A DNA stretch of 64,000 bases from Amphiscolops sp. MND2022 (taxonomy: Eukaryota), in NCBI GenBank assembly GCA_964187785.1, contig OZ076410.1:52948001-53012000 (forward strand), given 5' to 3'. Positions 44,017-44,427 of the stretch are shown here, one piece after another. The notes under the pieces were generated by a model, which was not told the origin of the DNA, ran no database searches, and saw only the letters and a program-made list of their open reading frames with translations. Positions within the stretch are counted from its first letter, which is position 1. Each line of letters opens with the position of its first letter. A program made the position numbers and the translations under genes.

Positions 44017-44427
44017 GTACACGTGGAGTTGGATAGGGGTGTCACTCATTTCGTCTTGCATCACTGACTGCGCTGCTGTCCACACCATTCCATTGAGTTC
44101 AATGTTCGGTTTCGAGATACTTAGTTTTTTTATTTGATAACTACAAATGATTTTAGAGAGCATTTTCATGCATTTTTGGAAGTTTGCAAAAGTAGTTTTT
44201 TCGTTTTGATTTTCTCGAGTTATTATATACTACAAGTACCGATTGAGAGAGGCTTCAAAAAACACCAAAATTCTGCCAACTTCGCGTTCATATCCGTTCA
44301 AGGTCTCGAGGTGACCGAATTTTTCCCAAAATTGTTCAGAATGATCATCCTTAAAATCACATGGACCAAAAAACGCCAAAGAGGTGCTACTTTCAAAATA
44401 ATCGCCTTGAACTTCTAACCACGAAAA
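44017..44427 (-). pseudogene. Divergent TARG1/OARD1-like macrodomain at the N-terminus of pol
   Basis: ORFs 44230-44607 and 43198-44169 share one frame split by a single TAG. The joined sequence FSWLEVQGDYF..SLAF..EKFG..RYL*YIITR..TFANFQKCM..LSI..W..IQLHVY aligns colinearly with recalled human OARD1 (ITYVKGDLF..SLAH..KKFG..RYIYYLITK..TYENLQKSL..LSM..W..IKITVY). Confidence 0.75.

What the first reader, a model, noticed from the sequence alone, without database searches (positions are those of the whole stretch)
44017..44427. Hidden TARG1/OARD1-like macrodomain between gag and protease, lacking the canonical ADP-ribose loops
The ORF track splits this domain at one TAG that sits where OARD1 has a Tyr (RYL*YIITR versus RYIYYLITK). 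The joined 137 codons align end to end with recalled OARD1. However, the GAGIA loop is replaced by DDHS, GCGLD by NIELN, and the Lys of LITK by Arg. Inference: a retroelement-borne macrodomain that may have lost or changed its hydrolase activity, possibly acting as a decoy against host ADP-ribosylation defences.
Basis: partly seen in the sequence, partly recalled or inferred. Interest (0 to 1): 0.8.

Follow-up and report, generated by a model that had tools for sequence, protein, structure and literature searches.

The report
Disarmed ADP-ribose eraser inside retrotransposon
A virus-like jumping gene in an animal genome carries a copy of an enzyme domain that normally removes ADP-ribose marks; in this family the domain still looks folded but has lost the residues needed to bind and cut ADP-ribose, while a related sequence keeps them.

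Summary
Confirmed. Window 44427-44017 (minus strand), read with X at the TAG, is a TARG1/OARD1-class macrodomain. OARD1 is its only PDB sequence match (E 5e-7), and TARG1 is the top fold match. It is the first domain of Pol in a young, full-length Ty3/gypsy element with an F-type env, probably reached from gag by a -1 frameshift (UUUAAAC plus hairpin).

The TAG is decay of this copy: 5 of 5 close relatives spanning it are open, and one (P0007) is a single 1756-aa macro-PR-RT-RH-IN-SGNH frame.

The loss of the ADP-ribose site is a family trait. The family keeps 1 of 9 phosphate, ribose and catalytic residues; all 103 scored distant relatives keep at least 2. The changes include Glu at TARG1 G123, a substitution that abolishes binding in the human enzyme. 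The hydrophobic core survives (41 of 45). A divergent relative with matching flanks (P0010) keeps all 9.

Best reading: a pseudo-macrodomain under weak, fold-level constraint. An ADP-ribose decoy is unlikely because binding appears lost too. Macrodomains in retroelements are already reported, so this is a new variant of a known kind.

The parts
44017..44427 (-). TARG1/OARD1-class pseudo-macrodomain, first folded domain of the Pol frame
44230..44232 (-). In-frame TAG: a lesion specific to this copy
   Evidence: 5 of 5 close relatives that span it are open; the downstream 80 nt fold only weakly (z -1.5)
44215..44217 (-). Position of the TARG1 nucleophile K84; Arg here and in 4 of 5 close relatives, Gly in the fifth
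44092..44106 (-). NIELN in place of the GxGxD phosphate and catalytic loop (G121, G123 and D125 positions are N, E and N)
44340..44373 (-). Remodelled loop 1: the H32, C33, S35, G43 and I44 positions are changed, with a short deletion
44514..44520 (-). Slippery heptamer U_UUA_AAC, in gag register, directly before the gag stop
44476..44506 (-). GC-rich hairpin starting 7 nt after the slippery site (predicted -1 frameshift stimulator)
   Evidence: -21.1 kcal/mol, z -3.0, 0 of 200 shuffles as stable
44511..45497 (-). gag, uninterrupted, 328 aa, PNMA-like N-terminal part and one CCHC knuckle
43582..43851 (-). Aspartic protease, same frame as the macrodomain
   Evidence: PF13975, E 1e-10
41172..43232 (-). 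RT, RNase H and integrase zinc finger; frame break near 43222-43232 at its start and a stop at 41172-41174
40320..41171 (-). Rest of integrase; frame break near 40326-40335
39316..40344 (-). SGNH/GDSL hydrolase, fused to the Pol C-terminus in the intact relative P0007
38429..39052 (-). 207-codon ORF of no known family between pol and env
36192..38234 (-). env-like ORF, uninterrupted, resembling F-type (Baculo_F / errantivirus) fusion proteins
   Evidence: atlas score 0.95, a lead: the family is on under half of cluster members and the recognition value is low; no convincing Pfam or PDB hit
45577..47275 (-). 5' LTR (TG...CA); primer-binding site starting TGG follows at about 45575-45558
33784..35505 (-). 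3' LTR; polypurine tract at about 35506-35517; 8 mismatches to the 5' LTR in about 1698 aligned bases, plus 3 gaps
33779..33783 (.). 5-bp target-site duplication, repeated at 47276-47280

Best explanation
The segment is a pseudo-macrodomain of the TARG1 class. An ancestor of this env-bearing Ty3/gypsy family carried an active TARG1-like ADP-ribose hydrolase at the start of Pol. The domain is translated only when ribosomes slip -1 at the end of gag, so it sits between nucleocapsid and protease in Gag-Pol and would be packaged into particles at Pol stoichiometry (inferred). In this family the phosphate loop, distal-ribose loop and catalytic Lys/Asp pair were lost together, so it most likely neither binds nor hydrolyses ADP-ribose (inferred from human TARG1 mutants). 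It persists as a compact folded spacer. It must stay in frame, and probably folded, so as not to disturb the Pol enzymes downstream, but constraint on its sequence is weak. The window copy is dead for Pol: the TAG is one of four pol lesions. Shown: homology, architecture, residue losses, family-wide fixation, kept core pattern. Inferred: frameshift use, loss of binding and catalysis, spacer role, direction of change.
For: Homology. Architecture: P0007 is one 1756-aa frame, macro-PR-RT-RH-IN-SGNH. Pocket loss: of 9 pyrophosphate, distal-ribose and catalytic sites (named in PMC6397177 and PMC5928194, passages), the 4 full-length family rows scored (P0002, P0003, P0004, P0007) keep 1. The 103 distant rows with all 9 sites aligned keep 2-9, and 62 of them keep all 9. 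The TARG1 pattern TKx(30,36)Px[IL]GxGxD (widened by one from the paper's) is absent in 6 of 6 family sequences tested, and present in P0010 and in 82 of 109 distant proteins. Fold kept: 41 of 45 core columns are hydrophobic (distant median 0.96, 5th percentile 0.89), and 17 of 89 non-core columns (0.19, equal to the distant median). Weak constraint: identity to P0007 is 80% (110/137), against 91-97% for PR, RT, RH and IN core (p 4e-8) and 75% for pooled linkers (p 0.25). Ancestral state: P0010 aligns over both flanks, keeps 9 of 9 sites and groups with the family in a quick tree (SH-aLRT 88); P0009 is intermediate (8 of 9).
Against: Ongoing constraint is not proven. Variable sites within the family are not significantly depleted at core columns (20/45 vs 46/89, p 0.47; Spearman p 0.23). 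Conservative substitutions exceed the neutral expectation only marginally (14/27, p 0.054). Selective loss of pocket over other conserved residues is significant in 2 of 4 rows (p 0.015 and 0.029) and not in the window copy or P0007 (p 0.12). No DNA for relatives was available, so no dN/dS was computed. The confident model leans on TARG1-like rows. P0010 was not shown to lie in a Pol: the search for longer forms found none (2 hits in 8000 scored candidates). The tree is a quick tree of 53 of 114 rows, chosen by similarity to the family, with support under 95 and a long-branch warning. Several new pocket residues are invariant in the family, which could mean a new function.
Confidence: 0.55

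Rival explanations
1. Repurposed binder: the fold was kept because it gained or kept a function unrelated to ADP-ribose, such as binding RNA, a nucleobase or a host or particle protein during assembly.
For: Human TARG1-G123E still binds RNA (PMC5928194, passages). The adenine-side GDxF motif is largely kept. FFG and the N-x-x-L-N loop residues do not vary among the family rows that cover them, and the Pro after FFG is likewise unchanged. The domain evolves at the same rate as the SGNH domain (80% vs 82%, p 0.77).
Against: Net charge is -5 (window), +2 (P0003) and 0 (P0007), against a distant median of +4. Of the three basic residues needed for TARG1 RNA binding (K50, R86, R126; bioRxiv 10.64898/2026.03.31.715305, section 7), the window copy keeps 0 and its close relatives 1 (read). 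No conserved patch was statistically detectable.
Confidence: 0.27
2. Decoy against host ADP-ribosylation defences: it sequesters ADP-ribose marks or host PARP/macrodomain partners.
For: Catalytically dead, fold-intact enzymes can act as decoys (general knowledge, recalled). TARG1 removes ADP-ribose from DNA thymidine and from RNA bases (PMC9967889 passages), so the pathway is relevant to retroelement nucleic acids.
Against: The binding loop is lost, not just catalysis. G43, I44 and G123 were each mutated to Glu to kill binding in human TARG1, and all three positions are changed here. Low Gag-Pol abundance suits an enzyme better than a stoichiometric decoy (inference).
Confidence: 0.07
3. Still an active hydrolase, working by a changed mechanism.
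For: SCO6735, a member of this class, uses Gln at the Lys position (PMC9967889 passage). T83 and the adenine-side motif survive.
Against: 1 of 9 key sites is kept, fewer than in any of 103 distant rows, and the GxG phosphate loop is gone.
Confidence: 0.05
4. The TAG is a programmed readthrough stop that regulates Pol.
For: It lies between gag and protease, where some retroviruses use readthrough (recalled).
Against: 5 of 5 relatives are open there. It falls inside a core strand of the domain. No strong downstream structure (z -1.5). A canonical -1 frameshift signal already links gag and pol. Three other pol lesions are present.
Confidence: 0.02
5. A recently captured, decaying piece of a host gene, as its low GC might suggest.
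For: GC 0.38 against about 0.5 in the rest of the element; GC3 0.40 vs 0.54, p 0.002.
Against: GC at fourfold-degenerate sites equals the rest of the element (22/43, 0.51 vs 0.51). The domain is shared in frame by relatives about 20% diverged, and its flanks align with the far more divergent P0010.
Confidence: 0.04

Closest known systems
Human TARG1/OARD1/C6orf130 (PDB 4J5S, 4J5R, 2L8R; ALC1-like macrodomain class)
   Same: Fold and subclass: only PDB sequence hit and top 8 fold hits (TM 0.82-0.84, about 25% identity).
   Different: K84, G121, G123, D125, H32, C33, S35, P118, G43 and I44 positions all replaced; less basic; embedded in a retroelement polyprotein.
DarG antitoxin macrodomain (PDB 5M31, 5M3E)
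   Same: Next-best fold match; weak PADLOC DarG profile hit for P0003 (E 7e-5) and a strong one for P0010 (E 2e-21).
   Different: No catalytic Lys, and no toxin partner in the element.
TARG1-like domains in other retroelement proteins found here (P0065, P0087: between RNase H and integrase; P0012, P0075: with integrase or RT domains; P0107: with a GDSL domain)
   Same: Same macrodomain class carried by retroelement-type proteins.
   Different: Different position, and all 5 keep the Lys, Gly and Asp.
Macro-domain ORFs in ray-finned fish epsilon-like endogenous retroviruses (Basta et al. 2009, seen only as a passage in review PMC4977317)
   Same: A macrodomain captured by an LTR retroelement.
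   Different: Described there as additional ORFs in true retroviruses. The subclass and catalytic state could not be checked because the primary paper is not held.
Errantiviruses: env-bearing Ty3/gypsy elements (PMC13524379: passages, section 7, supplement searches)
   Same: gag-pol-env order, RT-RH-IN order, F-type env-like ORF, LTRs with target-site duplication.
   Different: That survey's main text and 7 supplementary files contain no macrodomain, OARD1, TARG1 or SGNH annotation. This family has an N-terminal macrodomain, a C-terminal SGNH fusion and an extra ORF.
GDSL/SGNH accessory ORFs of bdelloid LTR elements (PMC5408684, passages) and non-LTR ORF1s (PMC3905857, passages)
   Same: Known precedent for the element's second accessory enzyme.
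   Different: There it is a separate ORF3 or ORF1; here it is fused to the Pol C-terminus.

Membership tests
Macrodomain fold, TARG1/ALC1-like class | Significant sequence similarity to TARG1 | tested here: met
   E 5e-7 for the window domain, 7e-8 for P0003, 5e-9 for P0007
Macrodomain fold, TARG1/ALC1-like class | Macro alpha/beta/alpha fold | tested here: met
   pLDDT 90.7, TM 0.83 to 4J5S; the model depends on TARG1-like alignment rows, and the family-only model failed
Active TARG1 hydrolases | Nucleophilic Lys (K84) | tested here: not met
   Arg in the window and in 4 of 5 close relatives, Gly in one
Active TARG1 hydrolases | GxGxD loop with D125; pattern TKx(30,35)Px[IL]GxGxD (PMC6397177) | tested here: not met
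   0 of 6 family sequences match
Active TARG1 hydrolases | Loop 1 residues H32, C33, S35, G43, I44 | tested here: not met
   All changed in 4 of 4 rows scored
Active TARG1 hydrolases | Adenine-side motif D20-L21-F22 | tested here: inconclusive
   D and F kept and L changed to an aromatic in the window and P0007; Asn for Asp in P0003
Active TARG1 hydrolases | Measured ADP-ribose binding and hydrolysis | not testable with these tools
   Needs biochemistry
Ty3/gypsy LTR retrotransposon | LTRs, target-site duplication, PBS and PPT | tested here: met
Ty3/gypsy LTR retrotransposon | PR-RT-RH-IN order; RT closest to Ty3 | tested here: met
   (top hit Ty3-G Gag-Pol, E 3e-109)
Errantivirus (env-bearing Ty3/gypsy) | F-type or gB-type env downstream of pol | tested here: inconclusive
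   Intact 680-aa ORF; atlas neighbours Baculo_F and Fusion_gly at 0.94-0.95, a lead only; no convincing Pfam or PDB hit; not folded
Errantivirus (env-bearing Ty3/gypsy) | Placement in an RT tree of known lineages | not tested
-1 programmed ribosomal frameshift signal | X_XXY_YYZ heptamer in register, 5-9 nt spacer, downstream structure (PMC8915115, passages) | tested here: met
   U_UUA_AAC, 7-nt spacer, hairpin z -3.0; the matching F-K-L peptide is kept in 5 close relatives and P0010
-1 programmed ribosomal frameshift signal | Measured frameshifting | not testable with these tools
   Needs a reporter assay

The most novel reading that the evidence does not exclude
Animal LTR retroelements have repeatedly captured TARG1-type erasers, at different positions in Pol, to strip ADP-ribose from their own RNA or cDNA. 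That would imply an unrecognised nucleic-acid ADP-ribosylation defence against retrotransposons in invertebrates. This family would mark a later step, in which the pocket was rebuilt for a new ligand or partner. P0010, P0009 and the window family would then form a natural active-to-pseudoenzyme series at one position.
Probability: 0.2. Interest if true: 0.8.

Novelty: new variant of a known kind. Interest (0 to 1): 0.45.

Why it matters
TARG1 removes ADP-ribose from DNA and RNA bases, so finding its class inside retroelement Pol proteins (intact in several, disarmed here) points to ADP-ribosylation as a possible host pressure on retrotransposons. The question becomes testable with small isolated domains. 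The disarmed version is invisible to Pfam and carries a natural equivalent of the laboratory G123E binding-dead mutation, which makes it a useful example of pseudoenzyme formation. For this copy alone the consequence is small: its pol is broken in four places.

Tried and rejected
Profile and database searches:
- Pfam and NCBIfam miss the window domain.
- No phage match for P0003 among 50,697 records.
- No second copy of the element in the window; tblastn of P0007 found only a distant integrase remnant at 62715-63060.
- The search for long proteins carrying a P0010-type intact domain at the Pol N-terminus returned only P0007 and an unrelated fucosidase fusion (2 of 8000 scored candidates). This is weak negative evidence.
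- The cluster-member query could not be made, so source organisms and copy numbers of the relatives are unchecked.

Models and tests:
- The family-only AlphaFold model was unusable.
- The site-level constraint test was not significant.
- The careful tree did not finish; only the quick tree was used (53 of 114 rows; P0008, P0027 and P0104 dropped as deleted or broken). P0096, P0100 and P0118 were labelled 'retro' in that tree on a guess, without domain evidence, so they are not counted as retroelement proteins.
- Readthrough at the TAG and recent host capture were rejected (see rivals).
- No complex prediction was run, as no binding partner is claimed.

Literature:
- Ten searches were answered. 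Seven of them (19, 20, 23, 57, 58, 59, 64) combined macrodomain or OARD1 terms with retroelement terms.
- None of the listings or passages I read describes a TARG1-class domain in Ty3/gypsy Pol.
- One search was too broad: 1,536 papers, 20 listed, none of the 20 mentioning OARD1.
- Subscription journals and Repbase reports are outside the library. I recall macrodomains being annotated in some transposon polyproteins and non-LTR ORF1s, but that is unverified recall; keyword look-ups in PMC4120745, PMC3905857, PMC6338049, PMC8557442, PMC5408684 and PMC13517186 showed no such passage.
- The errantivirus survey's supplements hold no matching PBS string, so the primer tRNA and host group stay unassigned.

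Full report
Observation. Window 44427-44017 on the minus strand, read with X at its single TAG (44230-44232), gives 137 codons. Pfam does not recognise it. Its only PDB sequence matches at E<=10 are five human OARD1/TARG1 chains (E about 5e-7). A profile of five family sequences found 113 proteins among 1.84 billion representatives, of which 83 list Pfam Macro. The atlas neighbours of relative P0003 include a Macro cluster (0.91) and an ADP-ribose-binding cluster (0.91), which are leads only. An AlphaFold2 model from an 89-row alignment is confident (pLDDT 90.7), and its eight best PDB fold hits are TARG1, followed by DarG; viral macrodomains also match. This model leans on TARG1-like rows, and a family-only model failed, so the sequence statistics are the independent evidence.

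Setting. The domain lies in a complete Ty3/gypsy element on the minus strand. The LTRs are at 45577-47275 and 33784-35505, with 8 mismatches and 3 gaps, a 5-bp target-site duplication, a PBS and a PPT. Gag is uninterrupted and has one CCHC knuckle. It is followed by protease, RT, RNase H, integrase, an SGNH hydrolase, an unknown 207-codon ORF and an uninterrupted env-like ORF resembling F-type fusion proteins. The host is presumably an animal (inference from the element type and the neighbouring FLYWCH-MULE transposon); it was not identified. The gag frame ends with U_UUA_AAC directly before its stop. A hairpin starts 7 nt later (-21.1 kcal/mol, z -3.0, 0 of 200 shuffles as stable), which fits the canonical -1 frameshift layout (PMC8915115, passages). 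Two other in-register heptamers occur slightly upstream, but only this one was examined for a stimulator. The -1 frame leads straight into the macrodomain, so it is best read as the transframe, N-terminal domain of Pol.

The stop is incidental. Two searches returned five close relatives at 79-86% identity (4 of 4 candidates; 1 of 42), and all five are open at the TAG position. A sixth, P0008, has an internal deletion across it. P0007 is one 1756-aa frame running macro-PR-RT-RH-IN-SGNH. Against it the window copy has four pol lesions: this stop, a frame break near 43225, a stop at 41172-41174 and a frame break near 40330. No strong structure follows the TAG (z -1.5). Readthrough is rejected.

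The lost active site is a family trait. TARG1 binds the pyrophosphate with a GxG loop, attacks with K84 and resolves the intermediate with D125 (PMC6397177, passages; bioRxiv 10.64898/2026.03.31.715305, abstract and section 7). In the window these positions read Arg (K84), Asn (G121), Glu (G123) and Asn (D125), and H32, C33, S35, G43, I44 and P118 are changed too. Of nine pyrophosphate, distal-ribose and catalytic sites, the four family rows scored keep one. All 103 distant rows with the nine sites aligned keep at least two, and 62 keep all nine (6 of 109 rows were excluded for gaps). In human TARG1, G43E, I44E and G123E each abolish ADP-ribose binding and catalysis, while G123E and G43E still bind RNA (PMC5928194, passages). 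The family therefore carries a natural equivalent of G123E (Gln in P0005). This argues against both hydrolase and ADP-ribose decoy roles.

The fold pattern is kept, but constraint is weak. Core columns stay hydrophobic at 41 of 45 and non-core columns at 17 of 89, the latter equal to the distant median. Identity to P0007 is 80% in the macrodomain, 82% in SGNH, 91-97% in the enzymes and 73-79% in linkers. The macrodomain differs significantly from the enzymes (p 4e-8) but not from the linkers (p 0.25). Conservative changes are 14 of 27 against about 35% expected (p 0.054). The site-level test found no significant sparing of core columns (p 0.47), perhaps because some relatives are decayed copies. 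Preferential loss of pocket residues is significant in two of four rows. So fold retention over the long ancestral branch is well indicated, while present-day selection is only suggested. The low GC of the segment disappears at fourfold sites (0.51 vs 0.51), so it is no sign of recent capture.

Origin. P0010 aligns to P0007 over the domain and both flanks, including the peptide that matches the slippery site (31% identity, E 3e-24). It keeps all nine key sites and matches TARG1 at E 1e-32. P0009 keeps eight. A quick tree of 53 of 114 rows groups the family with P0009 and P0055 (92) and with P0010 (88), below the 95 mark and with a long-branch warning. These rows were found by similarity to the family, so the grouping is partly expected. 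No long protein confirming P0010's Pol context was found. Separately, P0065 and P0087 carry a TARG1-like domain between RNase H and integrase, and P0012, P0075 and P0107 carry one beside integrase, RT or GDSL domains; all five keep Lys, Gly and Asp. Different positions suggest repeated capture (inference).

Mechanism. Most likely (0.55) an ancestral active eraser at the start of Pol became a pseudoenzyme and persists as a folded, weakly constrained spacer between nucleocapsid and protease. Next most likely (0.27) it was repurposed as a binder of something other than ADP-ribose. Against RNA binding, the domain is less basic than its relatives and keeps at most one of TARG1's three RNA-binding basic residues. 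Decoy (0.07), altered catalysis (0.05), recent capture (0.04) and readthrough (0.02) are disfavoured.

Comparison and novelty. It is a member of the TARG1-class macrodomain fold but fails the membership test for active TARG1 hydrolases. Macro-domain ORFs are reported in fish endogenous retroviruses (review passage, PMC4977317; the primary paper is not held). SGNH accessory domains are known in LTR and non-LTR elements (PMC5408684 and PMC3905857, passages). Seven targeted searches and keyword searches in a 2026 errantivirus survey and its seven supplements showed no description of a TARG1-class domain in Ty3/gypsy Pol. Repbase and most subscription journals were not searchable. Verdict: real, a new variant of a known kind, interest 0.45.

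Noticed in passing
window 39316-40344 (-): SGNH/GDSL hydrolase that is fused in frame to the C-terminus of integrase in the intact relative P0007, so this Pol has accessory domains at both ends.
   Followed up: partly
window 38429-39052 (-): 207-codon ORF between pol and env with no Pfam or NCBIfam match; highest GC3 in the element (0.65), which suggests it is coding.
   Followed up: partly
window 33784-47275: LTRs differ by only about 0.5%, yet pol has four lesions while gag and env are open. The copy may have been mobilised in trans from a pol-defective template, or some indels may be assembly errors.
   Followed up: no
window 44017-44427 (-): GC3 is low at non-fourfold codons only (33/94) and normal at fourfold sites; unexplained.
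   Followed up: partly
window 47584-49928: MULE DNA transposon with a FLYWCH finger (ORF 48388-49584) and about 148-bp terminal inverted repeats built of short subrepeats.
   Followed up: partly
window about 53300-58800: Three tandem copies of a 1.79-kb unit (95-98% identical), each with a roughly 260-aa minus-strand reading frame of no known family.
   Followed up: partly
window about 7280-13230 and 3200-16600: A 3.07-kb direct duplication (92-97%) nested within long degenerate inverted arms with strong strand-composition skew.
   Followed up: no
window 62715-63060 (-): Remnant of a second, distantly related integrase (30-37% identity to P0007).
   Followed up: no
proteins P0034, P0060, P0063, P0098: TARG1-like domains fused to DNA ligase 3, NADAR, PNK 3'-phosphatase/FHA and uracil-DNA glycosylase domains, consistent with roles on nucleic acids.
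   Followed up: no
proteins P0013, P0035, P0062: Other TARG1-like domains lacking all three of the Lys, Gly and Asp residues: further candidate pseudo-macrodomains of unknown context.
   Followed up: no
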